Source: a virus
DNA length: 64,000 nt
Reading direction: 5' to 3' (one strand)
IMG/VR virus record: IMGVR_UViG_3300027791_000009
Span: 1 to 64,000 of that record
The translations under genes were made by a program, and so were the position numbers. The notes beneath the pieces are model-generated. The model was not told the DNA's origin. It made no database searches and worked only from the letters and a program-made list of their open reading frames with translations. Shown here one piece after another: positions 1-64,000 of the stretch; position 1 is the stretch's first letter, and each line of letters starts with the position of its first letter.

Positions 1-1
1 A

Positions 2-430
2 CTACCACCTGCATTACAAAAAGCAATTCTTGCTAAACAAGGTAAGAAAGAAACTGCTGACAAAGATGAAATGCATGACATGAAAAAAGATGATAAGAAA
101 GAAATTAAAGAAGAAGACGCTTACGAGAATGATAGATATATTATCAAAAATGGTAAAGCAACTTTAGACAATTCAAATACACCTGATAAAAAAAATCATG
201 TATATGCTGATGGTCATAAAGACGCTGAAAAGAAAGCAAAAGAAAAAGGTATTAAAGAAGACCACGGTCCAAAGCATAAAGATGATAATGCTAAGAGTGT
301 TTTACCTAAATCACAAGACCCTAAAGACCCTATGAACATCAAAACTAAAGAACCTGAAAAGAAAACTACTATGAATGCTAGTAAATCAGACAAAATTGAT
401 GTTAATCCTAAGATAGATTACGCAAATTAA
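2..430 (+). CDS. 3' part of a charged (K/E/D-rich) putative head-associated/internal protein; open to the window edge
   Basis: Frame is open from base 2 (LPPALQKAILAKQGKK...) into the tracked ORF at 71; contains IKE-E/IKE-D motifs. Confidence 0.7.
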   Translation, partial: LPPALQKAILAKQGKKETADKDEMHDMKKDDKKEIKEEDAYENDRYIIKNGKATLDNSNTPDKKNHVYADGHKDAEKKAKEKGIKEDHGPKHKDDNAKSVLPKSQDPKDPMNIKTKEPEKKTTMNASKSDKIDVNPKIDYAN

Positions 431-513: not shown

Positions 514-1110
514 ATGAAATTTAAAGAACTCCGAGCTGATGTAATACATCAAGTCAAAAAACTATCACTTACAAACGAAGCGTTTAGACAAGACAACAAG
601 AAGTTGCCTCGTATCTATTGTGATATGGATGGAGTCCTATGTAATTTTGAACAGGCTGCACAAAAAGCAGTTAAAATGCCTCTATCACAATGGGCACAAG
701 AACCTAAAAAAGTATTTAAAACAATAAGAGATAAGTGGCAACCGATAATGCAGACTAAAAATTTCTGGTCTACATTACCTTGGAATCCAGGTGGTCAACA
801 ACTATGGTCTTTCATTAGTAAACATGACCCACACATCTTATCTGCTTATGTCGAACAGACATCGGATCCTAGTTGTATTCCTGGCAAATCAAAATGGGCT
901 AGAACCAAATTAGGTATGTCCGGCAGTAAAGTAAATTTAGTAAAAAGAAGAGAAAAGCAGAATTTTGCTAAAGTTGGTGGTATGCCAACAATTCTAATTG
1001 ACGACTATATCAAAAACATTAATCAGTTTAGAGCAAGAGGTGGTATAGGTATTCATCACACTAGTGCCGCTAAAACGATTTCTGAATTGAGAAAACTAGG
1101 TTTTAAATAG
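514..1110 (+). CDS. HAD-family 5'(3')-deoxyribonucleotidase-like phosphatase
   Basis: Motif I DMDGVL and motif IV ILIDD; RBS AAGGA. Confidence 0.85.
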   Translation: MKFKELRADVIHQVKKLSLTNEAFRQDNKKLPRIYCDMDGVLCNFEQAAQKAVKMPLSQWAQEPKKVFKTIRDKWQPIMQTKNFWSTLPWNPGGQQLWSFISKHDPHILSAYVEQTSDPSCIPGKSKWARTKLGMSGSKVNLVKRREKQNFAKVGGMPTILIDDYIKNINQFRARGGIGIHHTSAAKTISELRKLGFK

Positions 1111-1781: not shown

Positions 1782-1807
1782 GGGGATCCGTTGTGGTCCC
1801 CTTTTTT
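1782..1807 (+). terminator. intrinsic terminator
   Basis: GGGGATC-cgttgt-GGTCCCC stem followed by T-tract. Confidence 0.85.
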
Positions 1808-4138: not shown

Positions 4139-4721
4139 AAAACTAAAAGAATTTAAAGATGTATGGGAAGCTTGTTGGGACTCACACAAACAAGTCGGAA
4201 CTAAAATGAAAGGTGGCAAAGAAGTACCTAATTGCGTACCTAAAAATGAAGACGCACCTGTTAATTCAGTTGCGAGTGGCGGAGTTTCTATGCCACCTGA
4301 CGCTATGATGAAGAAAAAGAAGAAAGATATTCTAACTAAACTTGGTAGAAATATCAAAGAGAATAAAGATAACAATAACGCTGTAATGAATAGTGTACTA
4401 GACCAACTAGATAGACTAGATGTTATTGTAGACGAATTAACATACGGTAAAAACGAACCAGAGTTTGTCGTAGACGAATCAAAAAAATCAATTTTAGAAA
4501 AAGCAAGATTAACTGATAGTGCATTTGGTAGTATCGGTTCTGGTGGTGCCATGGGTGGTATGCACCCGGTAGCAGCTTTAGGAGATACTCCTCCAAAAGG
4601 ATATGGAAGTAGAAAGATTGGATTAGCGGCCAATAAGGATCCTAGACATGGTATCAAACAAGACAAGAAAACAAAAAACTTGAAAATAGTTAAACGAGAG
4701 GACAACAATGAAGAAGAGTAA
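4125..4721 (+). CDS. hypothetical head-associated protein
   Basis: EACWD...GTKMKGGKEVPNCVP and EDAPVN motifs seen in myovirus head-associated proteins. Confidence 0.7.
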   Translation: MSENKKLKEFKDVWEACWDSHKQVGTKMKGGKEVPNCVPKNEDAPVNSVASGGVSMPPDAMMKKKKKDILTKLGRNIKENKDNNNAVMNSVLDQLDRLDVIVDELTYGKNEPEFVVDESKKSILEKARLTDSAFGSIGSGGAMGGMHPVAALGDTPPKGYGSRKIGLAANKDPRHGIKQDKKTKNLKIVKREDNNEEE

Positions 4722-7258: not shown

Positions 7259-8047
7259 ATGGATAGATTACTTAGTTTATTTATAGTATGTTTTGTTATG
7301 TTAGGAATCACTACAATTCCTGCTTGGTCTGATACAACATCATCTGGAGCGACTACCAATTCCCTTACTAATACTACTGGAAGTAATACTACAATTACGG
7401 GTGGATATTCACAGGAAGACACAACTACTTACCAATCTGGTTCGTCTAGTAATACAACGAGCAGTACTAACGCAACCACAAACAACAACTCAAACATAAG
7501 AGACCAACAGAATACTGCCTCAGCGCCCTCTATGAGTGCTATGTCGCAAGATGTATGCGTTATGGGTGTATCTGGAGGTCTACAATATCCAGGTATCGGT
7601 ATATCAATGGGTGCTCATATAAGAGACGAAAATTGTGAACGAATTAAATTAAGCAAAGTCTTAAATGACCTAGGTATGAAGGTCGCTGCTGTTTCTATAT
7701 TATGTCAGGATCCTAGAGTATTTGAAGCAATGATACACTCGGGAACACCTTGTCCATATCAAGGTAAGATTGGTGCAGAAGCAAAAGCACAATGGAACAA
7801 ATACGACAAGTTAAGACCAGACTATGACTTATATGTTCATAAACTAAAAATCATAGAGAAGAAAGAAAAAGAATTAACAAAGACTAGTGAAGAAGACAAG
7901 TCTTTAAATTACCAATTGACTGAACAAACTGCTATCGCTGATGAAATAAGAAAAGAAAATAAGAAGTTAGACGCATACGCAGATAAACTTGAAAAGAAAG
8001 TTGAGAAGCTTGAAATGAAAGTTGATAAGAATAACAAATCAAAATAA
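7259..8047 (+). CDS. secreted protein: signal peptide, S/T/N-rich linker, 4-Cys domain, coiled-coil tail
   Basis: Signal peptide ending AWS; C-VMGVSGGLQYPGIGISMGAHIRDEN-C. Confidence 0.8.
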   Translation: MDRLLSLFIVCFVMLGITTIPAWSDTTSSGATTNSLTNTTGSNTTITGGYSQEDTTTYQSGSSSNTTSSTNATTNNNSNIRDQQNTASAPSMSAMSQDVCVMGVSGGLQYPGIGISMGAHIRDENCERIKLSKVLNDLGMKVAAVSILCQDPRVFEAMIHSGTPCPYQGKIGAEAKAQWNKYDKLRPDYDLYVHKLKIIEKKEKELTKTSEEDKSLNYQLTEQTAIADEIRKENKKLDAYADKLEKKVEKLEMKVDKNNKSK

Positions 8048-8170: not shown

Positions 8171-9872
8171 GGCAGAAGAAGCAACAACAGGTAATCTATT
8201 ACCCAACGCAGGTGATGGACAATCTAGTTTTCAGAATACACAAGACTCTCACACACCTGATAAGGTAGGTAGTGGTTCAGGTTTTACCATTGATAGTGGT
8301 ATACAAGCATTTCAAAACGAACTAGAAGCAAAAGGAACTGGTAATGTTACCGCTAATGGTTCACTAGTCGGTATAACTACAGAAAAAGAAAACGGTGGTC
8401 AGTTTAATATAACTGCTGATAGTTTAGATGGTGGTGTATCACTTAATTCACTTACCGAAGTACAGAATTGCGAATGGTTAGGTTCTACTAGTCGTTGTGG
8501 TTCAGCAACTGCTGGGGCAGATAGTTATAAAACAATATTAAAAATACTAGACGACAACAACAATGTCCTTGCGACTACCTCTATAACTAGAAATAATGAC
8601 GCCGGTTACGGGGTTAACTCATATACATATAGCGATACAATTGCTCACAACGGAACAGGTGCAAGAAAGTGGGATTGGCAATGGCAAGGTATAGATGGTA
8701 ACAATACTAGTGCAACTGCTTCAGTAGGACCTAACTTATTAGGTGCAAGTCTAACTGCTACTCTAGCAGATATAAATTTTCAACAACTAACAGAAGAACA
8801 ATCAACTAACATATCATCAGCGAATACGCAGATAGAAGAATCACAAACAGCATTGACAGAAGTATTTAAAGATGTACAACAATTTAAACCTGAAGTTAAT
8901 ATAGAAATTGCACCTAGAATAGAAAGACAAGAAGTTAAGATAGAAGAATTTAAAGCACCTGCTATAGAAATGAAGAAACTAGAAACTATGGTAATTGAAC
9001 AATTTAAACAGATAATCGTAAAGGAAAATTTAGTACAAGAATTTAATACTGCTCTCGTTGAAGAGAATATAACAGAAGAACAATTTTTTGAAGAAGTAGG
9101 TAATATGATGAAGGAAGAACTCAATGTTGTTCCGGAACCTAAAGTAAAAGAACCTAAAATGGAGGAAAATAATGTTGTAGCAAAGAAGTCTAATTTAGAA
9201 GAAGAGACTATCAAAGAGGAACCTAAAGTAAAAGGTGAACCTAAAGTAGAAAACGAACCTAAAAAAGAGGAATCAAATGCAAGTAATTCAACTGAACCAA
9301 AACCCGAAACTACTAAAGAAAATGAGACAAGTAGTGAGAATGAACCTGAGGAGAGTGAAAACACAGAAGAGAAGTCAAATGAATCTTCTATGGATGAAGA
9401 TACGGAAACAGAAGGAGAGGAGACGAAGAAGACTAATGAAGAAAAATTGGATGCAGATGAGACTGGAACAACAAAGGAAACAGATGTTGATAGCGGAGAT
9501 GAGAAATCTATTGCAAGCAGCATAAGTGCTAAAGTAGAAAAGATTATTAAGAAATTAGAGAATACATTGATGACGGTAGACCAGAAAGTAAAAGCAGTAC
9601 AATTTATAACACTAAGGGCAATGAGCGATGAAGCTCCTGATATGTCTTCATATAAAAATCAGTCCTTTTACTCTTCTACACAACTTCCTGATGGCAATGT
9701 AGATTTCTTTAATCAACTAAATATAGAGCAAACACAAATATATACAGGTGTTACCTTAGCAAAATATACTGATAACGATCCGTTGACTAGTCAGCGTGTA
9801 GAGTTAGACAGAATTAAGACTGAGGAAACCAGATTACAGATTGAATTAAAACAATTAAGGGAACAACTATGA
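8103..9872 (+). CDS. secreted protein: beta-rich N-domain, acidic linker, C-terminal coiled coil
   Basis: Signal peptide ending IKA; E/K-rich low-complexity middle. Confidence 0.8.
   Translation: MRGLNLINLLTTLILIISVNEIKAEEATTGNLLPNAGDGQSSFQNTQDSHTPDKVGSGSGFTIDSGIQAFQNELEAKGTGNVTANGSLVGITTEKENGGQFNITADSLDGGVSLNSLTEVQNCEWLGSTSRCGSATAGADSYKTILKILDDNNNVLATTSITRNNDAGYGVNSYTYSDTIAHNGTGARKWDWQWQGIDGNNTSATASVGPNLLGASLTATLADINFQQLTEEQSTNISSANTQIEESQTALTEVFKDVQQFKPEVNIEIAPRIERQEVKIEEFKAPAIEMKKLETMVIEQFKQIIVKENLVQEFNTALVEENITEEQFFEEVGNMMKEELNVVPEPKVKEPKMEENNVVAKKSNLEEETIKEEPKVKGEPKVENEPKKEESNASNSTEPKPETTKENETSSENEPEESENTEEKSNESSMDEDTETEGEETKKTNEEKLDADETGTTKETDVDSGDEKSIASSISAKVEKIIKKLENTLMTVDQKVKAVQFITLRAMSDEAPDMSSYKNQSFYSSTQLPDGNVDFFNQLNIEQTQIYTGVTLAKYTDNDPLTSQRVELDRIKTEETRLQIELKQLREQL
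9135..9264 (+). repeat. coding repeats GAACCTAAA(GTAAAAG) encoding EPK(VK)
   Basis: GAACCTAAAGTAAAAG at 9135 and 9219; partial copies at 9150, 9237, 9255. Confidence 0.7.
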
Positions 9873-10777: not shown

Positions 10778-11788
10778 ATGTCAAGTTATACAGATTTAAA
10801 ATTTATACAAGAAATATCGACCCGGCTAGCTCATTTTAAGAAAAAAGGTGACTATCTATTTAACTTTAGATGTCCTCATTGTGGTGATAGTCAAAAGTCG
10901 AAACTAAAGTCCAGAGGTTATTTCTACCGTAAGAAAAACGATATGTTTTTCAAATGCCACAATTGTGGTATGGGTCAGAACCTCGCAAACTTTCTAAAAC
11001 AGATAGACCCAAAAATCTATGAAAATTATCTATTAGAAAGATACAAGTCGGACGCACCTGCAACACCAAAACCAGAGTTTAAGTTTGATTTTAAACCGAA
11101 GATAAAGTTAGAGAACGACTATATATCTCTACTCACTTCAATATCAGATTTAGAAGACGAGCATCCAGTACGAAAGTATGTGGATAATAGAATGATACCT
11201 GAAAAGTATTTTGATAAACTTTTCTTATGTCATAAGTTTTATGAGTGGGCACACAAAATCTCACCTCGTAAATACAATACAAGTAAGTACGACCATCCAA
11301 GACTAGTGATACCGTTCTATGATACAGACGGTAAAGTATTCGCCTATCAAGGTAGAGCCTTTGGTAATGAGACACCAAAGTATGTAACCATTAAGTTAGA
11401 CGAAGACAAAGACAAGATATACGGATTAGAAAGAGTAAACTTTGCACAACACATTTATGTTGTAGAAGGTCCTATTGATAGTTTGTTTATCGACAATTGT
11501 ATCGCAGCTGGTGGCGCTGATTTGACACTAGATAGTAAATATAATCCTGAACAGGTGACATATATATTTGATAACGAACCGAGAAATAAAGAAATAGTAA
11601 AGCGAATGGAGAAGATAATTGAATTAGGTTACAACATTTTTATTTGGCCAGAAGATATACAACTCAAAGATGTTAATGACTTAATTAAGACAGGTGTATC
11701 TAAAGTACAACTACAAGAGATTATAAGTATCAACACATATTCAAAATTATCAGCACAACAAGTTTTAACAAATTATAGAAAAGCATAG
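10778..11788 (+). CDS. 61: DNA primase (T4 gp61)
   Basis: Zn ribbon CPHCGDS...CHNC; TOPRIM VEGPIDS, DNEPRN, KDVND. Confidence 0.95.
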   Translation: MSSYTDLKFIQEISTRLAHFKKKGDYLFNFRCPHCGDSQKSKLKSRGYFYRKKNDMFFKCHNCGMGQNLANFLKQIDPKIYENYLLERYKSDAPATPKPEFKFDFKPKIKLENDYISLLTSISDLEDEHPVRKYVDNRMIPEKYFDKLFLCHKFYEWAHKISPRKYNTSKYDHPRLVIPFYDTDGKVFAYQGRAFGNETPKYVTIKLDEDKDKIYGLERVNFAQHIYVVEGPIDSLFIDNCIAAGGADLTLDSKYNPEQVTYIFDNEPRNKEIVKRMEKIIELGYNIFIWPEDIQLKDVNDLIKTGVSKVQLQEIISINTYSKLSAQQVLTNYRKA

Positions 11789-15295: not shown

Positions 15296-15465
15296 TGGAA
15301 AAAGCAAAATACGAGTGTGAACATTGCGAAGAAGAATTTACAATATCGTGGCCTAAAGACGATATTGAACCTATAAGTTGTCCATTTTGTGGCGGCTCAA
15401 TTAACGATCCAGAAGAAGATGTTTTAACAGAGGATACTTCAGATGACGAAGATAATTGGAATTGA
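15295..15465 (+). CDS. small zinc-ribbon protein (56 aa, not in track)
   Basis: MEKAKYECEHC...CPFCG, acidic tail; TAATG coupling to nrdB. Confidence 0.75.
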   Translation: MEKAKYECEHCEEEFTISWPKDDIEPISCPFCGGSINDPEEDVLTEDTSDDEDNWN

Positions 15466-18076: not shown

Positions 18077-18292
18077 ATGATTGATGTAATGACGGTCATT
18101 GAAGAACTAAAAGAAATTAAAGACCAACTTCAAAGTGGCAATGTACCAATGGCCATTAAGAAGGTAGACGAAGGTATTGCATATAGAGAAAAAGAAGTCG
18201 CAGACTTTGAAAGAGAATATGCACCGAAAGAAACTGAAATCAAAATGCCATTAGGAGATTTAGCAAATGATCCTTTTGACGATATTAGATAA
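18077..18292 (+). CDS. early hypothetical protein
   Basis: RBS AGGAG. Confidence 0.7.
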   Translation: MIDVMTVIEELKEIKDQLQSGNVPMAIKKVDEGIAYREKEVADFEREYAPKETEIKMPLGDLANDPFDDIR

Positions 18293-18640: not shown

Positions 18641-18955
18641 ATGTTTACATACACAAAAGAAATGATGTTTAGTGAATTTAAGACGGCGACACAAAAAGAC
18701 CAAAAAGGTAAGAAAGAAGGATACGGCAATCGTATTGCTTTCTTAAAAGAAATGAAGTCATTGAAGAAAGCGCATCCTTCTTCTATGAGAAATATCAGTA
18801 TCAAGCAAAATCAATTTGATAATCTGATACTTGCATACTCGGCACCTAAACCGAGAGACCACTTTTATATGAAAGTGTTTGGAAGAACTTATGCAGACCA
18901 AAAAGCGTTTGAAGCAAAATCATATGGCAAAGACAAAAGCGACTTACTTAACTAA
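18641..18955 (+). CDS. early basic hypothetical protein
   Basis: RBS GGAGG. Confidence 0.7.
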   Translation: MFTYTKEMMFSEFKTATQKDQKGKKEGYGNRIAFLKEMKSLKKAHPSSMRNISIKQNQFDNLILAYSAPKPRDHFYMKVFGRTYADQKAFEAKSYGKDKSDLLN

Positions 18956-21807: not shown

Positions 21808-22384
21808 TGATATCAATATTAAAAATGACTATGATAATATAATTTTATTTCCAGAGAATAAGATTGCAAAACCACAAGTTGAGGTGGACCCAAAAGCACA
21901 AGCGAAAATGCGAGACTATCAAGCTGCAAAGTTTGTAGAAACAGCAACAGATGAAATCGGATTAGATTTGATTAGACGCTTCGTGCAAATGGGATTAGAT
22001 ACTAAACAAGATGTCTTTACAAAAGACCTTGCAATGTCTATGGACTCGGTAAGAGGTCTCTTGTACAGACAATTCAACATAGCACACCCTATTCAAAAGG
22101 TAGTAGACCATGCTGTTAAGTTGAAGATGAATAAGAAAGGCGTGGTTACTGCTCGTATTGAGTATGCAAATATGTCAGATGAGATAGACACGACTACTAG
22201 ACCCTTAAACAAAGATGTATCAGATGAACTTAACGATAGGAACAATGGTATGTTTACCTTTACAGAGAATTTTGACTTTAATCCTGAATACCCAGGACAA
22301 GACGGACCCGATATGTATCCAGATGAAGATGACCACTTACATGGTGACTTCCCAGAACCGGATCCTGAAGGACCAGTAAAATAA
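21800..22384 (+). CDS. hypothetical protein
   Basis: NIILFP N-terminal motif; acidic tail. Confidence 0.7.
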   Translation: MSDDINIKNDYDNIILFPENKIAKPQVEVDPKAQAKMRDYQAAKFVETATDEIGLDLIRRFVQMGLDTKQDVFTKDLAMSMDSVRGLLYRQFNIAHPIQKVVDHAVKLKMNKKGVVTARIEYANMSDEIDTTTRPLNKDVSDELNDRNNGMFTFTENFDFNPEYPGQDGPDMYPDEDDHLHGDFPEPDPEGPVK

Positions 22385-25270: not shown

Positions 25271-25271
25271 A

Positions 25272-25472
25272 ATGGAAAACTTGATATATGCAATGGCTGA
25301 CATGGTTTCTCTTATGAAGACTATGGCGCCTATGGAACTATGGATAATTATACTTGGTGGTGTAATATCTTTTTTGATAATGGAGTATACTGATAGAAAG
25401 AGACTACGACACGAAAACAATCAGACGAAGTATGGGAGAACAAACACCAGTGCCGAAAGAACTAAAACCTAA
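25272..25472 (+). CDS. small single-TM protein
   Basis: RBS GAGGAG; TM LWIIILGGVISFLIM. Confidence 0.65.
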   Translation: MENLIYAMADMVSLMKTMAPMELWIIILGGVISFLIMEYTDRKRLRHENNQTKYGRTNTSAERTKT

Positions 25473-44136: not shown

Positions 44137-44388
44137 ATGAAACAATTAAACAACCCTTTACGCAACACATTAGAAACCATACGCAATACCTACGAGGATG
44201 CTTTGTATAAAGTACATCTACACAGGTTTTACAAAGGTACATACGCATTTGACGGTCTCAATCATAAAGTCGGCGTAGTAGAAAGAATGACCATACAAAT
44301 CGCTATCTATACAAAACTAATCAAAGATATGACACTAGCGTGCCAGTTGCGTAGGTTTAGAATAAATAGAAAGAATAATATAATCTAG
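44137..44388 (+). CDS. hypothetical ORF (uncertain)
   Basis: 83-aa ORF with weak RBS in a compositionally atypical region. Confidence 0.35.
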   Translation: MKQLNNPLRNTLETIRNTYEDALYKVHLHRFYKGTYAFDGLNHKVGVVERMTIQIAIYTKLIKDMTLACQLRRFRINRKNNII

Positions 44389-50780: not shown

Positions 50781-52634
50781 ATGGCAAGTACCAAACTAGA
50801 TATTACTGAACTGGATTTTGACCAGATAAAAACAAATTTAAAAGTATTTTTACAAGCACAACCTGAATTTTCAGACTACAACTTTGAAGGTAGTGGTTTT
50901 GCTGTACTACTAGACTTACTTGCTTACAATACACACTATTTAGGTTTCAATGCTAATATGTTAGCAAACGAAATGTATTTGGATTCTGCTGATGTTAGAG
51001 CAAACATTGTTTCATTAGCAAAGATGTTAGGTTATACTCCTCATTCGGTAAAAGCACCAATGGCTTCAATTGACATTGTAGTTAATGACGCAAGAGGTAC
51101 AACACTAACTATGAGTAAAGGTTCTGTATTTACAACTTCTGTAGACGGAACAACTTATAACTTTATTACTAATACAGATACTACAACTTCACCAGTTGAT
51201 GGTATTTACAAATTTTCTAGTGTACCAGTTTACGAAGGTACACCTGTAACCTTTAGATATACGGTTGACACACTAGACCCAGACCAAAAATATCTAATAC
51301 CTAGTATTGACGCTGATACAACAACATTAAAAATTAAAGTACAAAAAAGTTTAACAAATACAGATTCAGAAACATACACAAGTGTTTCTGGATTGTTAAA
51401 ATTAAATAACAAAAGTAAAATATACTTCTTGTCTGAAACAGATACAGGTAAGTTTGAAGTTAAATTTGGTGATGGTATTATAGGTAAGAAATTAGAAAGT
51501 GGTAACATTATTATTATGGAGTACATTGTTACCAACAAAACAGACTCTAACGGTGCAAACTTATTTAATCCTGCAGGGAGTATCGGTGGCTTCTCTAATA
51601 TAACGGTTACAACCGTATCAGCTGCAGGTGGTGGTTCATCAGCAGAAACAAAAGAGAGTATTCGTTTCAATGCACCTCTACAATATACAGCACAAGACAG
51701 AGCGGTTACTACTTCTGATTACGAAACAAAAGTAATGTCAATTTATCCTAACGCACAATCAGTTAGTGCTTGGGGTGGAGAAGATGATGAGACACCAGTT
51801 TATGGTATTGTAAAAATTGCAATCAAACCTATGAGCGGTTCTTCATTAACAACACAATCTAAATCAGATATCATAAAACAATTAAAAGAATATAATGTTG
51901 CTTCAGTTTCACCTGTTATTGTGGATCCTGAAATCACAAGTATTGTTTTAACTTCAACTGCAAAGTATGACGAAAGAGCAACAACAAAAGACTCTGCAAC
52001 AATTAAAGCAAACATCATTACTTTATTAGGTACTTACAATGTATCTACACTACAAAAATTCGATAGTATGTTTAGACATTCTAAAGTCGTTAAACTAATT
52101 GACGATACAGACAATAGTATACTATCTAACACAACAACACTAAAGATAAGAAAATCATTTACACCTACTTTAAATTCATCTTTGAAGTATAGTGTATTCT
52201 TTAGAAATGCTGTTTACAATCCACATACTAGTCATAACTCAACTGCTGGTGGTGTTGTTTCATCATCTGGTTTTAAAATACAAGGTTCTACTAACGAACA
52301 ACTTTTAGATGATGACGGTAATGGTAACATAAGAAGATATTATCTATCAGGTGCGACTAGAGTTTATACTAACTCAACACAAGGCACGATTGATTACACA
52401 ACTGGTGAGATTACAATTAACTCACTACAGATTACAGAAATTTCAAATATAAGAGGGAGTGCTTCAACGGTGATAGAACTGACCGTGCAACCTGCTTCAA
52501 ATGACATTGTTCCTGTTAGAGACCAAATTTTAGAGTTAGATATTCCTAATTCAACAATTTCGGTTGACAAGGATTCCTTTGTCGGTGGAAGCTCGGATGC
52601 CGGTGTTGGTTATACTACCACTTCAGCATATTAA
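50781..52634 (+). CDS. 6: baseplate wedge protein (T4 gp6)
   Basis: LDFDQIK..L, DYNFEGS, LAYNTHY, FGDG..G, Q.RAVT..DY. Confidence 0.95.
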   Translation: MASTKLDITELDFDQIKTNLKVFLQAQPEFSDYNFEGSGFAVLLDLLAYNTHYLGFNANMLANEMYLDSADVRANIVSLAKMLGYTPHSVKAPMASIDIVVNDARGTTLTMSKGSVFTTSVDGTTYNFITNTDTTTSPVDGIYKFSSVPVYEGTPVTFRYTVDTLDPDQKYLIPSIDADTTTLKIKVQKSLTNTDSETYTSVSGLLKLNNKSKIYFLSETDTGKFEVKFGDGIIGKKLESGNIIIMEYIVTNKTDSNGANLFNPAGSIGGFSNITVTTVSAAGGGSSAETKESIRFNAPLQYTAQDRAVTTSDYETKVMSIYPNAQSVSAWGGEDDETPVYGIVKIAIKPMSGSSLTTQSKSDIIKQLKEYNVASVSPVIVDPEITSIVLTSTAKYDERATTKDSATIKANIITLLGTYNVSTLQKFDSMFRHSKVVKLIDDTDNSILSNTTTLKIRKSFTPTLNSSLKYSVFFRNAVYNPHTSHNSTAGGVVSSSGFKIQGSTNEQLLDDDGNGNIRRYYLSGATRVYTNSTQGTIDYTTGEITINSLQITEISNIRGSASTVIELTVQPASNDIVPVRDQILELDIPNSTISVDKDSFVGGSSDAGVGYTTTSAY

Positions 52635-52638
52635 TTAA

Positions 52639-55203
52639 ATGAAGTTTAATAAAAAGATTACAAACCTTTTACAAGGTCAAGTACCTGATTTTGTAATTGA
52701 AGAGCATCCTAAATTTTTAGAGTTTGTAAAAACTTATTTCCAATTAATGGAAGCCGCTGAGCTTTCTATTTCATCTTCTCAATCAACAGACGGTATATTA
52801 CTTGAAACAGAAACAGGTCAATCTAATACTTTATTATTAGACGCAAGTAGACTTGGTTCAGAAGCAACTCAAATAGACGCAGGTTCTAAAATCTTACAAG
52901 AACAATCATCATTTGGTAAATTCACAAATGGTGAAACTATTAAAGGCGAAACTTCTAATGCGACAGCAGTAATACTTACAGAAGATTTATTAAACGGAAG
53001 ATTATTCATTACAGCAGAAGATAAATTTATAGAAGGTGAAACGGTCACTGGAGTTTCTTCTGGTGCGTCTGGTGTATCTGGAAAGTATAGACCTAATCCA
53101 GTAAAAACAATACAAGACTTATTATCGTTTAGGGATCCTGATAAAGTTATCTCACATTTCTTAGGTCAATTTAGAAATGAAGTACTAACTACAATACCAG
53201 AAAATTTAACAGAAGGTCTAAACAAAAGAGAATTAATTAAAAGAGTAAAATCTTTATATCGTACTAAAGGTACTGCAAAAGGACACGAATTATTTTTTAG
53301 ATTACTATTTGGTATTTCTTCTGAAACATTTTATCCTAAAGAACAAATGCTTAGAGTATCAGATGGTGAGTTTACATCAAATACAATATTAAGATGTATT
53401 AACTCAATCGGTGATACAGGTAAATTACTTGGTAGACAAATTACAGGTATAACTTCAGGTGCAACTGCAATTGTAGAAAACATATCTCGTTTCCAAATAT
53501 CAAGTGAAGTCGTATCAGAATTTTTATTAAACCAAGAAAGTATTGTAGGTACATTCCAAGTTGGTGAAACAATTAGAGGTACTGCAAGTGATACAGATGA
53601 CTTATATATTAAATCAGATGTTACCGGTATACCTGGTAAGTTTACAATTACTAATGATGGTTCACTCTTCACAGATAACGAACAAGTCGATTTAGTAGGT
53701 GGCGGTGGTGGTGCAAACTGCCAAGTCGGTGAAATAGGTGCTGGTGGTATTTCAGAATTTTATATTAATGCAAACGGTTCACAATATCAAATTGGAGACC
53801 AACTAGTTTTCAATAATGCAAATACAAACGGTGCCGGTGCTGTAGCAGAAGTTGCTGTAGTTAACGGTGCAATAGCAGGAGAAGCTTCTAGTGGTTATGA
53901 CCATATCATATTTGAAGACGCAACAAGTAAGAATGACATCAACCCTGGTGATAAAATAGTTTTAGAAAGTGGTCTTGGTGATATTACAGATATTAGATTA
54001 ATTAAAAGTGGTTCTGGTTATACAAGTTTACCTACGGTTACGATTGCAACTGATAATGGTTTATCTGCTGAGATATACGCATATGGAACTGAAATTGGAA
54101 AACTTCTAGGTATTACTACTATCGAGTCTGGTCTTAAACACGATTTAAGTCCATCTCCACCAACGGTTAAATTACCACAAGCAATTCTTATATTAGGTCA
54201 TACAGGTAACTATGTTGCCGGTGAAACAATCACTGGTGGTACATCAAGTAATACTGGTGTAGTTTTATCTTGGGATTCTACTAGAGGTCTATTAAGATTA
54301 AAGAATATTACAGGTGCATTTGTAGGACACGAAGTAATGACAGGTAGTATTTCAGGTGTTACCGGTCTAATGGCAAAAACAGATGTTGCAACTGCAACGG
54401 TCGAAATTGTAGGTACTTCTACAAGTGAAGGTAAATATATTTCAGAAGATGGTCACTTATCAGAAACAACTATGAAAGTACAAGATAGTTTATACTATCA
54501 GGACTTCTCGTATGTAATTAAAGTAGGTCGTACTATTGACACATGGAGAGACGCATTTAAAAAGACAATGCACCCTGCTGGTTTCTACTTTACTGCACAA
54601 GTAAACATTGAAAGTAGACTTAATGCGAAAAATAGAATGCCTGTTATTGGTAGGGTTACTGGTATTGAGGCAAGTCCATTTATTTCTGTATTGAATACAT
54701 TGTTTGGTACAATCTTTGGAAGAAGATTAGGTACTATAGATGATGGTACTTCATTAAGAGCAAGTGGTTCTAACGCATTACAACTAGGTGTCGCAGCTGA
54801 TGTTGTACAAAATGCAAAATCGCCTTTTGCAACAGATACAAGAGATTTAACTTTACATAGAACAAAGATTGCTTTCTCGTTTCAGTTTAAACCATTTTAT
54901 AACTTTAGAACGGTCAATACAAACTTTGGGTCTGTATATGCTGGACCACGATTAAGAAGTTTCAATAAATACTTTCAACAATCTATGTCTGCTTCTGCAA
55001 TGAATTGGGCTAGAGTAGCAGAATTAAAGGCAATAGGTACAAATACTGCAGCTGATGGTACAGACTTGCAATTTGGAGATATAACTACTATTGCAAAGAC
55101 TTATATTACATACCCGGCAGCAATACTTGTTCCTCAAGGTAGATTTAGTAATACACAGAAAAAATTTAGTAGTGCAACGGCGAAGTTTAGCTCAACTACA
55201 TAA
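52639..55203 (+). CDS. 7: baseplate wedge initiator (T4 gp7-like)
   Basis: Q.P.F..E.P.F.EF...Y, LY..KGT, QDS.YYQDFSY.IK, HPAGF. Confidence 0.8.
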   Translation: MKFNKKITNLLQGQVPDFVIEEHPKFLEFVKTYFQLMEAAELSISSSQSTDGILLETETGQSNTLLLDASRLGSEATQIDAGSKILQEQSSFGKFTNGETIKGETSNATAVILTEDLLNGRLFITAEDKFIEGETVTGVSSGASGVSGKYRPNPVKTIQDLLSFRDPDKVISHFLGQFRNEVLTTIPENLTEGLNKRELIKRVKSLYRTKGTAKGHELFFRLLFGISSETFYPKEQMLRVSDGEFTSNTILRCINSIGDTGKLLGRQITGITSGATAIVENISRFQISSEVVSEFLLNQESIVGTFQVGETIRGTASDTDDLYIKSDVTGIPGKFTITNDGSLFTDNEQVDLVGGGGGANCQVGEIGAGGISEFYINANGSQYQIGDQLVFNNANTNGAGAVAEVAVVNGAIAGEASSGYDHIIFEDATSKNDINPGDKIVLESGLGDITDIRLIKSGSGYTSLPTVTIATDNGLSAEIYAYGTEIGKLLGITTIESGLKHDLSPSPPTVKLPQAILILGHTGNYVAGETITGGTSSNTGVVLSWDSTRGLLRLKNITGAFVGHEVMTGSISGVTGLMAKTDVATATVEIVGTSTSEGKYISEDGHLSETTMKVQDSLYYQDFSYVIKVGRTIDTWRDAFKKTMHPAGFYFTAQVNIESRLNAKNRMPVIGRVTGIEASPFISVLNTLFGTIFGRRLGTIDDGTSLRASGSNALQLGVAADVVQNAKSPFATDTRDLTLHRTKIAFSFQFKPFYNFRTVNTNFGSVYAGPRLRSFNKYFQQSMSASAMNWARVAELKAIGTNTAADGTDLQFGDITTIAKTYITYPAAILVPQGRFSNTQKKFSSATAKFSSTT

Positions 55204-61300: not shown

Positions 61301-64000
61301 GTAGATAGTTATTCTGGTATTATTGATTACACAGCAATACCTAGTTATACTTCTGATACTTCAGGAGAAACTTATCAATTAAGAGACACATTAGACTTTA
61401 GACCTAGAGTAGATGACGCAAGTACAATTAACTCTGGTACACAAGATAGAACTTATCCTGCAACAGCTTCAATTGAAGTTGTTAAGTTTAAAACAAATGT
61501 GACCACAGACCACGAATTTTACAAAGGAAGAGTTGATAAACTATTCTTAAATAAAGAAGGTGCCTTTGAAGTACTTAAAGGTGCTGAAGCAAATGTACCA
61601 CAAGAGCCAGGTTCTATTGATAACGCAATGCACCTATACACTCTTTCTTTACCACCGTACACATTGTCACCAGATGATGTATCATACGAGACGGTAGAAA
61701 ATAGAAGATATACAATGAGAGATATTGGTGCTATTGATAAGAAGATTGATAGAATTGAATATTACACTCAATTGTCTCTATTAGAAACTGCGGCTCAATC
61801 TTTACAGATACAAGACGCTGATGGTTTCGATAGATTTAAAAATGGATTTGTTGTAGACAACTTTAACGGTCACGGTATCGGTGAAGTAACCAACGGTTCA
61901 TACAGATGTTCGATTGATTATGCAAAAGGCGAATTAAGACCTTTGTTTAACCAAGACGCTGTAAAACTAGAAGAGATTGACGAAGACGGTACAACATTAG
62001 TTGCTACTGACAGAGCGGCTGCAAACTATCAAAAGTCTGGTGATGTACTAACATTACCATTTACAGAAATAGATTTAATAAATCAACCTTTTGCTTCTAA
62101 AGCAATTAATGTTAACCCATTTGCAATTTTCAGTTGGATGGGAACAATAGATTTAACACCATCAAGTGATGAATGGAGAGAAACACAAAGAACTCCTGAT
62201 TTAGTAGTTAACTCAACTACAGGTGCGTGGGACCAATTACAAAGACAAAGTGGTATTACAGACCAAGATGAAATCTCACTTGGAACGGTATGGAATGAAT
62301 GGCAAACTAACTGGACTGGAAGAGCATTAACATCTTCAACTACAGCTTCAGGTGGAAGATTTATGCGTGGTCGTGCTATTGTACAAAGAACAGAAACTAC
62401 TTCTATCAACCAAGTTAACCAAAGTAGGTCAGGTATTACAACAACTGCCGTACCTCAAACGATAAGAACATCTATGGGAGATAGAGTTGTTAGTGTTGCA
62501 TTTGTACCATTTATCAGAAGCCGTGATGTTGCATTTAAAGCTACAAGATTAAAACCAAATACAAGAGTATTTCCATTCTTTGATAATGTAAATATTGCTA
62601 CTTATTGTACACCAGACGGTGGTTCAGTTGGTGGTAACTTAATTACTGACGGTGCTGGTGCTGTTGAAGGAGTATTCACAATACCGGATCCTAAAGTAAA
62701 TACAAATCCTAGATGGAGAACTGGAGAAAGAACATTTAGATTAACTTCTTCTTCTACTAACTCGCAAGACGCAGCTGCTGTTGCTACTGCGGCTAATGCT
62801 GAATATATTGCAAGAGGATTATTAAATACCGTTAGAGACACAATTGTTTCTACAAGAGAATTTAGAGGTGTACAACAAACGGTTACAGATTCACAAACCA
62901 TTTTACAAACATCTACAAGAGCAGGTACGCAAATTGTTGGTTGGGTTGATCCATTATCTCAAACATTTATGACAGATGAACCTGGTGGAGTATTCATATC
63001 TTCTGTTGATTTATTCTTTTCAACAAAAGACGCAAACATTCCTGTAACCGTTCAAATTAGAAATACGGTTAATGGTTATCCTGGAAGTAAATTATTACCA
63101 TTTGGTGAAGTTTCATTAAATCCAACTGCTGTAAATACAAGTACAGACGGTTCAGTTAAAACAACATTTACATTCCCTGCACCAATATACATACAAGATA
63201 AAGTTGAATATGCAATGACGGTATTGTCTAACTCAAATGATTACAATATGTATGTGGGTAGATTAGGAGAAACAAATATTGGTTCTAATAGAACAATATC
63301 TAAACAACCATATGCTGGTGTTATGTTCAAATCTCAAAACGGTTCAACTTGGACTGCTGAACAAAACGAAGATATGAAATTCACAATGAAAAGATGTGAG
63401 TTTAGTAATGTCGTAGGTACGGTTCACTTAGGAAGTAAAGAACTACCGGCACAAAATATTAAACAAAACGGATTAAGAACTACAAACGGTTCAGGTGTAA
63501 TTAGAGTTTTCTATTCAAATCACAATATGCACGATACTAATTCTGTGGTTACTATATCTGGTGTTCCTTCAGGAACTCTTAACGGTATTGCTTCGACAGA
63601 TATAAACGGAACATATACTTCTATTTCTAATATTACATTAGATAGTTTTGATATTACAACATCAGGAACTGCAAATACTGATGGTGATATCGGAGGCACA
63701 ACAATACTTGTTACCGGTAATAAACAATTTGATGTATTAAATCTAGGTGGTCTACAAACTATGACCGTTCCTGGTACAAACATTGAACCGTTTATTAGAA
63801 CAACATCTAGTAAGTCACTTCACGGTGCTCAAACACCATATTCATTAGTTTCTGAAAGTAATAGACAATCGGTTACATTAGTAGACGATATTTACTTTAC
63901 TGCGCCACAGGCTGTTATGTCTGGACCAAATGAAACAACTAGAATGGCAGGACAAAAATCTTTCTATACTATTATGAAATTATCAACGACAAATAATAAG
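58376..64000 (+). CDS. very large virion structural protein (VrlC/DUF4815-like), truncated by the window end
   Basis: MPSPTDFNLSPYYDDF...LFRP..AVQARELTQ.Q; FKNGFVVDNF; DPLSQTF; absent from the ORF track because no stop is reached in the window. Confidence 0.9.
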   Translation, partial: MPSPTDFNLSPYYDDFSEDKAFHRILFRPAFAVQARELTQSQTILQNQIEKMGNHIFEQGAQMIPGEITYDLQYYAIKLTSFTGTSNLTDFVGIEVTGQTSGVVAKVINSDVATSTDPATLYVKYTKTGTGNQTPDFVAGETILGVLNGSTNISGVVTSAETGSAASVASGTYYINGYAVNVSKQTIVLDKYTNTPSYRVGLTVTDSIVTPNLDVSLVDNAAGSSNANAPGAHRFKIDLTLSKLTTTSVEDSSFIELLRLEKGTLQNRVRTTEYSILEDTLARRTSDESGDYTIRPFDLDIREHLDDTAGNRGIFTAAAGGDANKLALGLSPGKAYVKGYEVDKIGTTFVPVEKPRSFGNENGFNTIFDVGNFLNVSNAYNSPDINFVTGKTEAFKGLQLKLASEAYTAGNIPTNVQNRVKDIGRAKSKGYEFNATTGAGISTASNISPSSSNIFKHYLFDVEMFSHIKIPTNVVFTNGETITGTTSGANGIKESVSTNTTSAIATSTAANPVVITMSADLEVSDGDAITIAGVATQTELNDIVFYVRQKVGGVAKREFELYNADDVAIDGTGHTGAGSGGTITTSCVVLSSVQGQFIPGETITGGTSSNTAVVKANVFGNQGFTHYGSSDVKEVTMAGSPVYTAQADLSATYGENKTLSGNISISASTSDVTGFNTQFLTELKVGDSVQFATTTGTILTRTVINIVNSSSIRLDSAISTTAVSNSLIIRRRGKLQDASKNISLFSLPYTTIKTLKTANNSGISDTSFIVRKTFVGSLSSTGDITITANTGETFVAQQEQDYSVTIMSAGGSSSAGTAGDKISTTGNNHEGNACFTLGGSPVGRSLTLDFGANHSDHEVKIIATISKSAQNEKSKNLVSNSTATITTSAAATANHISLGVADGYQLVSVKMAADFSTTPTASDTDITTRFTLDSGQRDNFYDIARLVRKEGSLAPSGQLLITFNYFTHGSGDFFSVDSYSGIIDYTAIPSYTSDTSGETYQLRDTLDFRPRVDDASTINSGTQDRTYPATASIEVVKFKTNVTTDHEFYKGRVDKLFLNKEGAFEVLKGAEANVPQEPGSIDNAMHLYTLSLPPYTLSPDDVSYETVENRRYTMRDIGAIDKKIDRIEYYTQLSLLETAAQSLQIQDADGFDRFKNGFVVDNFNGHGIGEVTNGSYRCSIDYAKGELRPLFNQDAVKLEEIDEDGTTLVATDRAAANYQKSGDVLTLPFTEIDLINQPFASKAINVNPFAIFSWMGTIDLTPSSDEWRETQRTPDLVVNSTTGAWDQLQRQSGITDQDEISLGTVWNEWQTNWTGRALTSSTTASGGRFMRGRAIVQRTETTSINQVNQSRSGITTTAVPQTIRTSMGDRVVSVAFVPFIRSRDVAFKATRLKPNTRVFPFFDNVNIATYCTPDGGSVGGNLITDGAGAVEGVFTIPDPKVNTNPRWRTGERTFRLTSSSTNSQDAAAVATAANAEYIARGLLNTVRDTIVSTREFRGVQQTVTDSQTILQTSTRAGTQIVGWVDPLSQTFMTDEPGGVFISSVDLFFSTKDANIPVTVQIRNTVNGYPGSKLLPFGEVSLNPTAVNTSTDGSVKTTFTFPAPIYIQDKVEYAMTVLSNSNDYNMYVGRLGETNIGSNRTISKQPYAGVMFKSQNGSTWTAEQNEDMKFTMKRCEFSNVVGTVHLGSKELPAQNIKQNGLRTTNGSGVIRVFYSNHNMHDTNSVVTISGVPSGTLNGIASTDINGTYTSISNITLDSFDITTSGTANTDGDIGGTTILVTGNKQFDVLNLGGLQTMTVPGTNIEPFIRTTSSKSLHGAQTPYSLVSESNRQSVTLVDDIYFTAPQAVMSGPNETTRMAGQKSFYTIMKLSTTNNK

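What the first reader, a model, noticed from the sequence alone, without database searches (positions are those of the whole stretch)
1..64000. GATC and GATGC appear to be purged except in a GGAT context: signature of a GGAT-specific DNA modification
Seen (manual scan): about 18 GATC sites, where roughly 200 would be expected at about one-third GC. Every one I found is GGATC and/or GATCC (e.g. near 865, 1785, 4638, 9777, 15406, 18269, 26469, 31958, 41228, 62948). GATGC/GCATC was seen only as GGATGC/GCATCC (near 9450, 11161, 18772, 32488, 34222, 39778, 42818, 44197, 52596, 52704), and Asp-Ala, Asp-Gln and Asp-Leu codon pairs switch to GAC against the AT bias. Established: m6A in the site blocks MboI/DpnII-type (GATC) and SfaNI-type (GCATC) enzymes. 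Inference: both sites are selected against by host restriction but tolerated where the A lies in GGAT, implying the phage DNA is modified at GGAT (or GGATS) by an enzyme not encoded in this window.
Basis: partly seen in the sequence, partly recalled or inferred. Interest (0 to 1): 0.8.

Follow-up and report, generated by a model that had tools for sequence, protein, structure and literature searches.

The report
Restriction sites spared beside a G
This ocean phage has erased GATC, GATGC and several other enzyme-target words from its DNA except the copies with a G directly in front, which points to a phage-made chemical mark on its DNA that is broader than the GGAT word first proposed.

Summary
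In the window 18 of 18 GATC are GGATC and/or GATCC, and 11 of 11 GATGC/GCATC are GGATGC/GCATCC. Against a codon-shuffle null, unflanked GATC is 0 vs 84 expected and unflanked GATGC/GCATC 0 vs 63. The scan has met this rule before on other SAR11-type myophage DNA.

The rule is not GGAT-specific. In the same window GTWAC survives only as GGTWAC/GTWACC (0 unflanked vs 78 expected; 107 flanked). GAGATG and GTTCTG need a 5' G, and CAGTG a 5' C. GGATCC is fully kept, and one-sided GATC sites are kept at about 14% of expectation.

Cultured Pelagibacter myophages obey the rule: HTVC008M at 83 of 83 GATC and 43 of 43 GANTC, Mosig at 19 of 19 GATC. Podophages of the same host strain have no GATC at all, flanked copies included. 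So the sparing is a trait of the myophage lineage. It is most likely a phage-borne DNA mark whose short context includes the flanking G.

No DNA methyltransferase lies in this 82%-complete record. An 87%-identical relative carries four methyltransferase-like genes in the 36 kb missing here.

The maker and the chemistry are unproven. HTVC008M has no recognisable DNA methyltransferase.

The parts
1..64000 (.). Whole window: purge of restriction-type words with flank-conditional sparing (GATC, GATGC/GCATC, GTWAC, GAGATG, GTTCTG, CAGTG). There are 107 GTWAC sites, all GGTWAC and/or GTWACC.
   Evidence: Codon-shuffle null: HGATCD 0 vs 84.2; HGATGC+GCATCD 0 vs 62.7; HGTWACD 0 vs 78.2; one-sided GTWAC 102 vs 41.5
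864..869 (.). GGATCC (Asp-Pro GAT-CCT)
1784..1789 (.). GGATCC, intergenic by my ORF calls
4637..4642 (.). GGATCC (Asp-Pro)
7708..7713 (.). GGATCC (Asp-Pro)
9776..9781 (.). CGATCC, one-sided (Asp-Pro)
15405..15410 (.). CGATCC, one-sided (Asp-Pro)
18268..18273 (.). TGATCC, one-sided (Asp-Pro)
22360..22365 (.). GGATCC (Asp-Pro)
26468..26473 (.). GGATCC (Met-Asp-Pro)
26647..26652 (.). GGATCC (Met-Asp-Pro)
27842..27847 (.). GGATCC (Asp-Pro)
31957..31962 (.). GGATCG, one-sided, intergenic by my ORF calls
34213..34218 (.). TGATCC, one-sided (Asp-Pro); 4 bases before the GCATCC at 34222
41227..41232 (.). GGATCA, one-sided (Gly-Ser GGA-TCA)
51923..51928 (.). GGATCC (Asp-Pro)
53133..53138 (.). GGATCC (Asp-Pro)
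62686..62691 (.). GGATCC (Asp-Pro)
62947..62952 (.). TGATCC, one-sided (Asp-Pro)
9449..9454 (+). GGATGC (Asp-Ala)
32487..32492 (+). GGATGC (Met-Asp-Ala)
38967..38972 (+).
39778..39783 (+). GGATGC (Trp-Asp-Ala)
44196..44201 (+). GGATGC (Asp-Ala)
52595..52600 (+). GGATGC (Asp-Ala)
11161..11166 (-). GCATCC on + strand = GGATGC on - strand (His-Pro)
18772..18777 (-). GCATCC on + strand, outside my + strand ORF calls
34222..34227 (-). GCATCC on + strand (His-Pro)
42818..42823 (-). GCATCC on + strand (His-Pro)
52704..52709 (-). GCATCC on + strand (His-Pro)

Best explanation
The window is part of an uncultured T4-like myophage related to the Pelagibacter (SAR11) phages Mosig and HTVC008M. Its genome has been purged, by selection against DNA cutting, of a long list of restriction-type words.

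Some purged words begin with G followed by A or T: GATC, GATGC, GTWAC, GAGATG, GTTCTG. Copies of these survive only where another G sits directly 5' on that strand (equivalently, a C directly 3' on the other strand). The most likely reason is that the phage itself marks its DNA after replication, in one or more short contexts that include this flanking G:C pair. A site is then shielded only when its flank completes the context.

For palindromic sites each strand is marked on its own:
- GGATCC is shielded on both strands and is fully kept.
- One-sided GATC sites are shielded on one strand and mostly lost.
- One-sided GTWAC sites are kept.
This suggests that the nucleases behind the purge differ in how well a half-marked site stops them.

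At least two determinants are involved, because GGATC and GGATGC tolerance vary independently among relatives. The enzymes are not in this record. Candidates lie in the about 36 kb that it lacks. In an 87%-identical relative this stretch holds an MT-A70 adenine methyltransferase, a small N6_N4-family protein and two paralogous TSPPY amino-methyltransferases.

Shown: the purge, the flank rule, its spread among relatives, and its absence from podophages of the same host.
Inferred: that a modification is the cause, what it is chemically, and which enzyme makes it.
For: 1. The rule is strong and is not a codon artefact. Window HGATCD 0 vs 84.2, HGATGC+GCATCD 0 vs 62.7, HGTWACD 0 vs 78.2, while flanked forms are at or above expectation. 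G-ending codons are enriched before GAT-CC (17 of 81 Asp-Pro) and before GAT-GC (15 of 127), against 147 of 2321 Asp overall.

2. The tolerance is graded: two-sided above one-sided above none. Whole record: GGATCC 18 vs 9.8, one-sided 15 vs 102, none 0 vs 159. This fits marking of each strand separately.

3. It is a lineage trait, not a property of the selecting agent or of the host.
- Myophages of host HTCC1062: HTVC008M GATC 0 unflanked, 55 one-sided, 28 two-sided, and GANTC 0/33/10 against 198/54/7.3 expected. Mosig GATC 0/0/19.
- Podophages of the same host: HTVC011P 0 GATC (Markov expectation 86). HTVC019P 0 GATC (expectation 100), with GANTC 1 and 6, all unflanked.

4. Each purge is lineage-specific but the sparing always has the same form. 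GTWAC, GTSAC, GANTC and GATC are purged in different subsets of 11 records.

5. The gene content fits.
- Relative G001 is colinear with this record at 86.6% nucleotide identity over 69 kb and obeys the rule (28 of 28 GATC, 18 of 18 GATGC/GCATC).
- In exactly the stretch missing here it carries M1 (PF01555, E 1.6e-19), M2, M3 (MT-A70, E 1e-28; PADLOC Type II MTase 2.8e-62) and M4.

6. Among 58 informative loci around M4, all 34 GATC-purged loci that keep one-sided GGATC (6.2-7.9 per 10 kb) carry a 349-aa DPPY methyltransferase or a divergent MT-A70 directly upstream. The 12 purged loci with the G001-type MT-A70 or no neighbour keep 0.15-0.25 per 10 kb.

7. There is a precedent. Phage Mu Mom marks adenine in a loose 3-base SAS context (about 20% of dA) and so shields subsets of many restriction sites (PMC13219725, passages read). 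Marine Myoviridae-like genomes carry on average 2.2 methyltransferase genes and many unmatched motifs (PMC8919816, passages read).
Against: - No modification has been observed. All evidence is sequence statistics and gene presence.
- HTVC008M, a complete cultured genome that obeys the rule at 83 of 83 GATC, has no match to PF01555, PF02086, PF05063, PF00145 or PF01702, and no homologue of M1-M4 or the 349-aa enzyme. A phage-borne mark there needs an unrecognised enzyme.
- The link between neighbour methyltransferase and tolerance rests on few independent events. The loss of one-sided tolerance maps to one clade of the M4 tree.
- GGATGC density is the same (1.2-1.7 per 10 kb) whatever the neighbour gene, so that gene cannot explain the GATGC half of the finding.
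- The complete genome G016 shows at least five different one-base exemptions (GGATC, GGATGC, GGTCTC, GCTGAG/GCTAAG, CCAGAG) but only three methyltransferase-like genes.
- A blanket mark on GG-W/W-CC fails to rescue CCGG flanked by W in G016 (1 of 76 expected). It also fails to rescue CCATG in G001 and G016 (0 of 96 and 0 of 148).
- M1 lacks the DPPY-type catalytic motif (it reads SLPD).
- The podophage contrast assumes that both phage groups face the same nucleases.
Confidence: 0.6

Rival explanations
1. One reading: one GGAT- or GGATS-specific adenine methylation (m6A) shields both GATC and GATGC.
For: All 33 GATC and all 21 GATGC/GCATC of the record lie in GGAT/ATCC. Adenine methyltransferases (MT-A70, DPPY type) sit in relatives and track GGATC tolerance. 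GGATGD is about twice as dense in loci with those enzymes (6.7 vs 2.9 per 10 kb).
Against: The same flank rule holds for GGTWAC, GGTTCTG and GGAGATG in this window, and none of these contains GGAT. It also holds for GGANTC in HTVC008M. GGATGC tolerance does not depend on the genes that track GGATC tolerance. Records G021 and G022 keep GGATGC (7, with 0 unflanked) but almost no GGATCC (1 in 108 kb).
Confidence: 0.08
2. The nucleases that drive the purge cannot cut G-flanked sites. For example, enzymes that cleave directly 5' of the first G (as MboI does at GATC and MaeIII at GTNAC; recalled) may be blocked by the neighbouring base. No modification is then needed.
For: The flanking base adjoins the scissile bond for GATC- and GTNAC-type cutters (recalled enzyme properties). 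The graded pattern (two-sided, one-sided, none) also fits a homodimer in which each half reads one flank.
Against: Podophages of the same host strain removed every GATC, including the roughly 40% expected to be flanked, and their residual GANTC are unflanked. The same flank rule would have to hold for at least five unrelated sites, including asymmetric ones. The tolerance class differs between close relatives.
Confidence: 0.12
3. A host-encoded mark (a conserved orphan methyltransferase or phosphorothioation at GpsG/CpsC steps) is copied onto phage DNA and shields G-flanked sites when the phage moves to a host with other nucleases.
For: HTVC008M has no recognisable DNA methyltransferase yet obeys the rule. 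The sparing junctions G|G and C|CA resemble known phosphorothioate steps (recalled, not tested).
Against: Podophages replicating in the same host show no sparing. Marine metaepigenomes of Pelagibacterales report GANTC-type motifs only (PMC8919816, passages). PMC9516812 states that RM systems had not been reported in SAR11 (passages).
Confidence: 0.07
4. The spared sites are forced by coding or by conflicts with other avoided words, with no protection at all.
For: 28 of the 33 GATC are Asp-Pro. Many words are avoided at once.
Against: The synonymous alternative is freely used: Asp-Pro after non-G is GAC in 51 of 64 cases. GGACC/GGTCC is at expectation (73 vs 72.7). Asp after G shows no general shift away from GAC. 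The 3 GATC sites that lie outside my + strand ORF calls obey the rule too. The codon-shuffle null already holds protein sequence and codon usage fixed.
Confidence: 0.02

Closest known systems
Restriction-site (short palindrome) avoidance in lytic phage genomes, for example the GATC-free Staphylococcus phage K (recalled, not checked here)
   Same: Restriction-type words fall to zero or near zero against a codon-aware null, on both strands: ACGT 0 vs 214, CGCG 0 vs 28, ACWGT 0 vs 189, TCTAGA 0 vs 36.
   Different: Here the purge depends on one flanking base for several words, and the spared class sits at or above its neutral density. I found no description of this in print. One full-text search for GGATCC + GATC + avoidance + phage + overlapping + methylation returned 0 papers. 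That single search is far from exhaustive.
Phage Mu Mom: a GNAT-fold enzyme that adds a glycine-derived group to N6 of adenine in a loose SAS context (PMC13219725; listing, abstract start and passages read)
   Same: A phage-borne mark with a context of about 3 bases that shields only those copies of many different restriction sites whose flanks complete the context.
   Different: No Mom homologue is found in this record. The context here involves a GG/CC step next to A or T, not SAS. The base marked is unknown. HTVC008M's DruA-like protein resembles Mom only weakly (Z 5.2, rmsd 3.4 over 102 residues, tied with many GNAT proteins, on a model of pLDDT 71).
Orphan methyltransferases of marine Myoviridae-like viruses (PMC8919816; passages read)
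   Same: Several methyltransferase genes per genome (2.2 on average) and motifs absent from REBASE, among them GATCC, GTWAC, GTNAC, SATC and GATGG in marine genomes. The relatives of this phage carry 3-4 methyltransferase-like genes.
   Different: From the main text I could not see which genomes carry GATCC or GTWAC, apart from GATCC in one gammaproteobacterial genome, because the supplements were closed. No link to site avoidance is made in the passages I read.
GANTC depletion in a subset of pelagiphages (PMC9516812; abstract and passages read)
   Same: Site depletion that partitions Pelagibacter phages by clade. I recover it for HTVC011P, HTVC019P and HTVC008M.
   Different: In the passages I read, that paper does not report the flank-conditional form. 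In HTVC008M all 43 remaining GANTC are GGANTC and/or GANTCC.

Membership tests
Restriction-site avoidance | Word counts far below a null that keeps protein sequence and codon usage | tested here: met
   GATC 33 vs 272 in the record; HGATCD 0 vs 159; HGATGC+GCATCD 0 vs 132
Restriction-site avoidance | Depletion on both strands and in all frames (a DNA-level target) | tested here: met
   GATGC 13 vs 84.5 and GCATC 8 vs 62.8 on the + strand. GAT-C avoided in frame; all 9 HGATCD hexamers are at 0.
Restriction-site avoidance | A host nuclease that recognises the word | not testable with these tools
   The host of this record is unknown. No host genome was examined.
Phage orphan methyltransferase protection | A DNA methyltransferase gene in the phage genome | tested here: inconclusive
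   None in the 82%-complete record. Four methyltransferase-like genes lie in the colinear relative G001, inside the stretch missing here. None is found in the complete HTVC008M genome.
Phage orphan methyltransferase protection | The spared word equals the enzyme's target | not testable with these tools
   No specificity can be read from the sequences. There is only the association of the 349-aa DPPY enzyme or a divergent MT-A70 with tolerance of one-sided GGATC (34 of 34 loci against 0 of 12).
Dam-type GATC methylation | A D12-class (PF02086) or T1-type (PF05869) Dam gene, with GATC kept | tested here: not met
   no PF02086 in G000 or in 17 relatives' records; none in HTVC008M or Mosig; no PF05869 in G000, G016, G001, G007 or G010. 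GATC is purged, not kept.
Mom-like short-context hypermodification | A GNAT-fold DNA-modifying enzyme encoded by the phage | tested here: inconclusive
   No PF14236 match in G000, G001 or G016. HTVC008M and Mosig carry DruA-like proteins whose model matches GNAT folds weakly, with Mom as top row at Z 5.2.
7-deazaguanine (DpdA) DNA modification | A TGT/DpdA homologue | tested here: not met
   no PF01702 in G000, G001, G016, HTVC008M or Mosig
C5-cytosine methylation | A PF00145 methyltransferase | tested here: not met
   none in G000, G001, G006, G007, G010, G016, HTVC008M or Mosig

The most novel reading that the evidence does not exclude
SAR11-type myophages place a previously undescribed mark with a context of about 3 bases on the G:C pair of GG-W/W-CC steps. 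It is made by a conserved pair of enzymes in the replication module:
- the TSPPY amino-methyltransferase paralogues M2 and M4 in this phage's clade;
- non-homologous GNAT-fold DruA-like (DUF4338) proteins at the same two genome positions in HTVC008M and Mosig.

This mark half-shields every restriction site that starts at such a step. If true, it would also suggest that DruA of type I Druantia is a DNA-modifying enzyme related in fold to Mom.
Probability: 0.2. Interest if true: 0.85.

Novelty: new variant of a known kind. Interest (0 to 1): 0.62.

Why it matters
- Pelagibacter myophages are cultured representatives of an abundant group of ocean viruses. The papers I read in part call restriction-modification in their SAR11 hosts scarce. 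Yet these genomes carry one of the heaviest site purges one can measure.
- The flank rule is a sequence-only footprint that predicts where the virion DNA is chemically marked.
- HTVC008M and Mosig obey the rule and are in culture, so the prediction can be tested directly on virion DNA.
- The contrast with podophages of the same host shows two strategies against the same pressure: purge everything, or mark the DNA and keep the marked subset.
- The work names candidate enzymes of unknown specificity (M2/M4, MT-A70 variants, DruA-like proteins).

Tried and rejected
- **Nanopore reads.** I looked for systematic miscalls at the sites. No run with the library word NANOPORE was listed for window 25001-35000. 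This says nothing about whether such a run exists.

- **'Lesser of two evils'** (GAC avoided after G because of GGWCC). Rejected: GGWCC is 73 vs 72.7 expected, and Asp after G shows no general shift away from GAC.

- **A blanket W-CC/GG-W cytosine mark as sole cause.** Weakened by CCGG and CCATG being fully purged in G016 and G001 whatever the flank.

- **Phosphorothioate at the scissile GpsG bond.** It fits cutters that cleave 5' of the G but not asymmetric sites cut at a distance. No gene evidence was sought. It stays an idea only.

- **M1 as the GGATCC enzyme.**
  - G020 (with M1) has 5 GGATCC in 40 kb. G021, which lacks M1 at the syntenic place, and G022 together have 1 in 108 kb.
  - In the 54 loci around M2 the local counts were too small to tell.
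  - M1 lacks a DPPY-type motif.

- **M2/M4 against DruA-like proteins.** The profile comparison found no relation (probability 0.2%). Only the genome positions correspond.

- **Profile of M2/M4 against solved structures.** No DNA methyltransferase was found; the best hit was an mRNA cap methyltransferase at E 0.012.

- **Foldseek of the DruA-like model.** No match at E <= 0.001.

- **Other dead ends.**
  - The DruA passages of the YprA preprint said nothing on DruA's activity.
  -, a tape-measure search meant to list other pelagiphages, was useless.

- **Not tested.** PF02384, PF07669, PF13651 and thymidylate-synthase-type hydroxymethylases were not searched in any record. Supplements of PMC8919816 and PMC9516812, which may list which viral genomes carry GATCC, GTWAC or SATC methylation, were closed.

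Full report
**What the window is.** A structural protein at 52639-55203 is 47% identical to one of Pelagibacter phage Mosig. It has weaker matches to HTVC008M and to Methylophilales phage Melnitz. The window is the first 64 kb of a 119,869-bp linear IMG/VR virus record, G000, with CheckV completeness 82%. GC content is 35%, and nearly all long ORFs lie on the + strand.

**Checking the observation.**
- The window holds 18 GATC, and all 18 are GGATC and/or GATCC: 11 GGATCC, 5 HGATCC, 2 GGATCD.
- It holds 6 GATGC, all GGATGC, and 5 GCATC, all GCATCC.
- The whole record gives 33 of 33 GATC and 21 of 21 GATGC/GCATC.

I called genes crudely as the longest non-overlapping ORFs (156 genes, 93% coding) and permuted synonymous codons within each gene. 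Results for the window (100 shuffles):

| Word class | Observed | Expected |
|---|---|---|
| HGATCD | 0 | 84.2 |
| One-sided GATC | 7 | 53.1 |
| GGATCC | 11 | 6.0 |
| HGATGC+GCATCD | 0 | 62.7 |
| GGATGC+GCATCC | 11 | 8.1 |

The record as a whole gives 0 vs 159, 15 vs 102, 18 vs 9.8, 0 vs 132 and 21 vs 15.6 in the same order. Unflanked copies are absent. GGATCC and GGATGC sit at or above neutral density. One-sided GATC sites are kept at about one seventh of expectation.

**Codon evidence (whole record).**
- Asp before CA, CG or CT is never GAT (0 of 136).
- Asp-Ala is GAT in 12 of 15 cases after G and in 0 of 112 after another base.
- Asp-Pro is GAT in 15 of 17 cases after G and in 13 of 64 otherwise.
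- 28 of the 33 GATC are Asp-Pro.
- Codons ending in G precede 6% of all Asp (147 of 2321) but 21% of Asp-Pro (17 of 81). This fits a path in which a harmful HGATCC is cured either by GAT to GAC or by a synonymous change to G upstream, and it would explain the excess of GGATCC.

**The rule is wider than GGAT.** A scan of all 4- to 6-mers for words purged with three flanks but kept with the fourth, followed by explicit counts, gave for the window:

| Site | Without the sparing flank (obs vs exp) | With the sparing flank (obs vs exp) |
|---|---|---|
| GTWAC | 0 vs 78.2 | one-sided 102 vs 41.5; two-sided 5 vs 4.7 |
| GAGATG | 1 vs 17.9 | 5' G: 8 vs 5.9 |
| GTTCTG | 2 vs 20.5 | 5' G: 18 vs 10.7 |
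| CAGTG | 1 vs 39.6 | 5' C: 11 vs 11.5 |

- GANTC is half depleted when unflanked (41 vs 104.6) and not depleted when flanked (34 vs 38.7; 4 vs 2.4).
- GGWCC and CCWGG are at expectation.
- None of GGTWAC, GGTTCTG and GGAGATG contains GGAT.
- The window also lacks ACGT, CGCG, ACWGT, TCTAGA, RCATGY, TCATGA and ATCGAT altogether. It has single copies of ATGCAT, CTTAAG and TTCGAA in the whole record.

**Relatives.** Eighty IMG/VR loci around the structural gene fall into several classes.
- The 32 closest loci (at least 69% identity) have no unflanked GATC, apart from one site in L030, and no unflanked GATGC.
- Among the more distant loci:
  - some keep one-sided GGATC at near-normal density (L072, L073);
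  - some keep almost only GGATCC;
  - a few have none;
  - many do not purge GATC at all yet still lack GATGC except as GGATGC.
- The record behind L073 (G016) is 177,460 bp with terminal repeats and estimated 100% complete. It has 121 GATC, all flanked (15 two-sided, 106 one-sided), and 40 flanked against 10 other GATGC/GCATC.
- Across 11 records, GATC, GTWAC, GTSAC and GANTC are purged in different subsets, but the sparing always takes the same 5'-G/3'-C form.

**Genes.**
- G000 has no match to the D12, N6_N4, C5, T1-Dam, MT-A70, TGT or DruA families.
- G001 (109,563 bp) aligns with G000 at 86.6% identity from G000 50781 to 119800, and again at G000 270-1100. G001 72.0-108.7 kb therefore fills the gap between the two ends of G000.
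- That stretch holds four candidates:
  - M1: 231 aa, PF01555 E 1.6e-19, but with SLPD where DPPY is expected.
  - M2: 394 aa.
  - M3: 196 aa, MT-A70 E 1e-28, DPPW.
  - M4: 411 aa.
- M2 and M4 are paralogues that share motif I and TSPPYF.
- G016 has a 349-aa DPPY enzyme beside the DNA polymerase gene, plus M2 and M4 homologues.

**Association around M4.** Of 76 loci with a full-length M4, 58 are informative about the upstream neighbour.

| Upstream neighbour of M4 | GATC state | Loci | kb | One-sided GGATC per 10 kb |
|---|---|---|---|---|
| 349-aa DPPY enzyme | purged | 21 | 245 | 6.2 |
| Divergent MT-A70 | purged | 13 | 107 | 7.9 |
| G001-type MT-A70 | purged | 8 | 122 | 0.25 |
| None | purged | 4 | 66 | 0.15 |
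| None | not purged | 11 | 132 | 9.3 |

- The remaining locus, L104 (G001-type MT-A70), is not purged.
- On the M4 tree the two enzyme types replace each other 3-4 times without a change of phenotype.
- The loss of one-sided tolerance maps to a single clade, so the independent evidence is thin.
- GGATGC density is 1.2-1.7 per 10 kb in every group. GATGC sparing therefore does not depend on these genes.

**Cultured phages.**
- HTVC008M (147,284 bp) has 83 GATC: 28 two-sided, 55 one-sided and none unflanked, against a Markov expectation of 405. Its 43 GANTC are all flanked, against 198 unflanked expected.
- It has no match to PF01555, PF02086, PF05063, PF00145 or PF01702, and no tblastn homologue of M1-M4 or the 349-aa enzyme.
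- Its two annotated methyltransferase-domain proteins look like small-molecule enzymes.
- Mosig (141,461 bp) has 19 GATC, all GGATCC.
- Three podophages of the same host strain behave otherwise:
  - HTVC011P has 0 GATC (expectation 86) and 1 GANTC, unflanked.
  - HTVC019P has 0 GATC (expectation 100) and 6 GANTC, all unflanked.
  - HTVC010P does not purge GATC (79 unflanked, 52 one-sided) but has no GTSAC at all.
- In HTVC010P 40% of GATC are flanked. The two purged podophages have therefore removed some 35-40 flanked copies each.
- This is the strongest argument here that the sparing is neither a property of the nucleases nor a host-made mark. It is carried by the myophage lineage.

**A lead on the maker in HTVC008M.**
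- At the two genome positions where the G000 clade has M2 (after the SbcC-like gene) and M4 (after the DNA polymerase), HTVC008M has two proteins matching the DruA/DUF4338 family (E 2e-19 and 7e-12). Mosig has one (E 7e-24).
- The family has 3911 relatives at E <= 1e-5 in the protein collection.
- An AlphaFold model of gp106 (19 sequences, pLDDT 70.9, low confidence in part of the conserved core) finds nothing by Foldseek at E <= 0.001.
- The exhaustive aligner returns almost only GNAT-fold proteins. The top row is phage Mu Mom at Z 5.2, rmsd 3.4 over 102 residues, tied with the rows below and under the tool's own caution line of Z 8.
- Mom marks adenine in a loose SAS context and shields Mu DNA from many enzymes (PMC13219725, passages). 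This is a resemblance of fold and of logic, not a membership.

**Verdict.**
- It is wrong in its particulars: the context is not GGAT, there is more than one determinant, and m6A is not shown.
- The scan has reported the same rule on other SAR11-type myophage DNA. New in this follow-up, as far as those summaries show:
  - the GTWAC and other flank rules in this genome;
  - the cultured examples;
  - the podophage contrast;
  - the mapping of the missing methyltransferase region;
  - the neighbour-gene association;
  - the DruA-like lead.

Noticed in passing
window 1-64000 (and the whole record): GTWAC follows the same flank rule even more strongly than GATC. The window has 0 unflanked vs 78 expected and 102 one-sided vs 41.5. 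The record has 1 vs 148 and 206 vs 98.6. GTSAC is only half depleted when unflanked (window 15 vs 27.9).
   Followed up: yes
window 1-64000 (and the whole record): Very broad purge of restriction-type words in the record: ACGT 0 vs 214, CGCG 0 vs 28, ACWGT 0 vs 189, TCTAGA 0 vs 36, TCAAGA/TCTTGA 2 vs 85, RCATGY 0 vs 43, TCATGA 0 vs 19, ATGCAT 1 vs 31, ATCGAT 0 vs 22, TTCGAA 1 vs 26, CTGCAG 7 vs 40. CATG as such is not avoided (ACATGA 28 vs 33).
   Followed up: partly
HTVC008M 86116-87258 and 99535-100659; Mosig about 14388-15653: DruA/DUF4338-like proteins sit at the two genome positions where this phage's clade has the TSPPY methyltransferase paralogues M2 and M4. The predicted fold is GNAT-like, with weak similarity to phage Mu Mom (Z 5.2).
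   Followed up: partly
G001 75393-76088 (L088:15393-16088): The small N6_N4-family protein M1 has SLPD in place of the DPPY-type catalytic motif, so it may not be an ordinary amino-methyltransferase. It is present in G001, G019 and G020 and is absent at the same place in G021.
   Followed up: partly
G016 (177,460-bp complete relative): Other one-base exemptions: GTCTC is kept as GGTCTC (32 vs 17; other flanks 6 vs 107). CTGAG is kept as GCTGAG (23 vs 22; others 3 vs 65). CTAAG is kept as GCTAAG. CAGAG is kept as CCAGAG (28 vs 25; others 10 vs 100). CATG is at 0 vs 560 (both-strand count), TCGA at 4 vs 338 and CCGG at 2 vs 108.
   Followed up: partly
G021 and G022 (records of L110, L112): Close relatives keep flanked GTSAC (0/22/3 and 0/18/3 for unflanked/one-sided/two-sided) and flanked GANTC (0/5/5 and 3/8/5). 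They have almost no GATC of any kind (1 GGATCC in 108 kb) and do not purge GTWAC.
   Followed up: partly
L104 (7.6-kb IMG/VR contig): This is the only locus with the G001-type MT-A70 that holds unflanked GATC (3) as well as ACWGT (8). It may be a mixed or recombinant contig.
   Followed up: no
Mosig record, first 229 bases: A partial MT-A70 match (62% identical to M3 over 77 residues) is cut by the start of the record. No remainder was found at the other end.
   Followed up: partly
HTVC010P whole genome: This podophage keeps GATC (131 sites) and GATGC (83) but has no GTSAC, GGCC, CCGG or CGCG at all.
   Followed up: no
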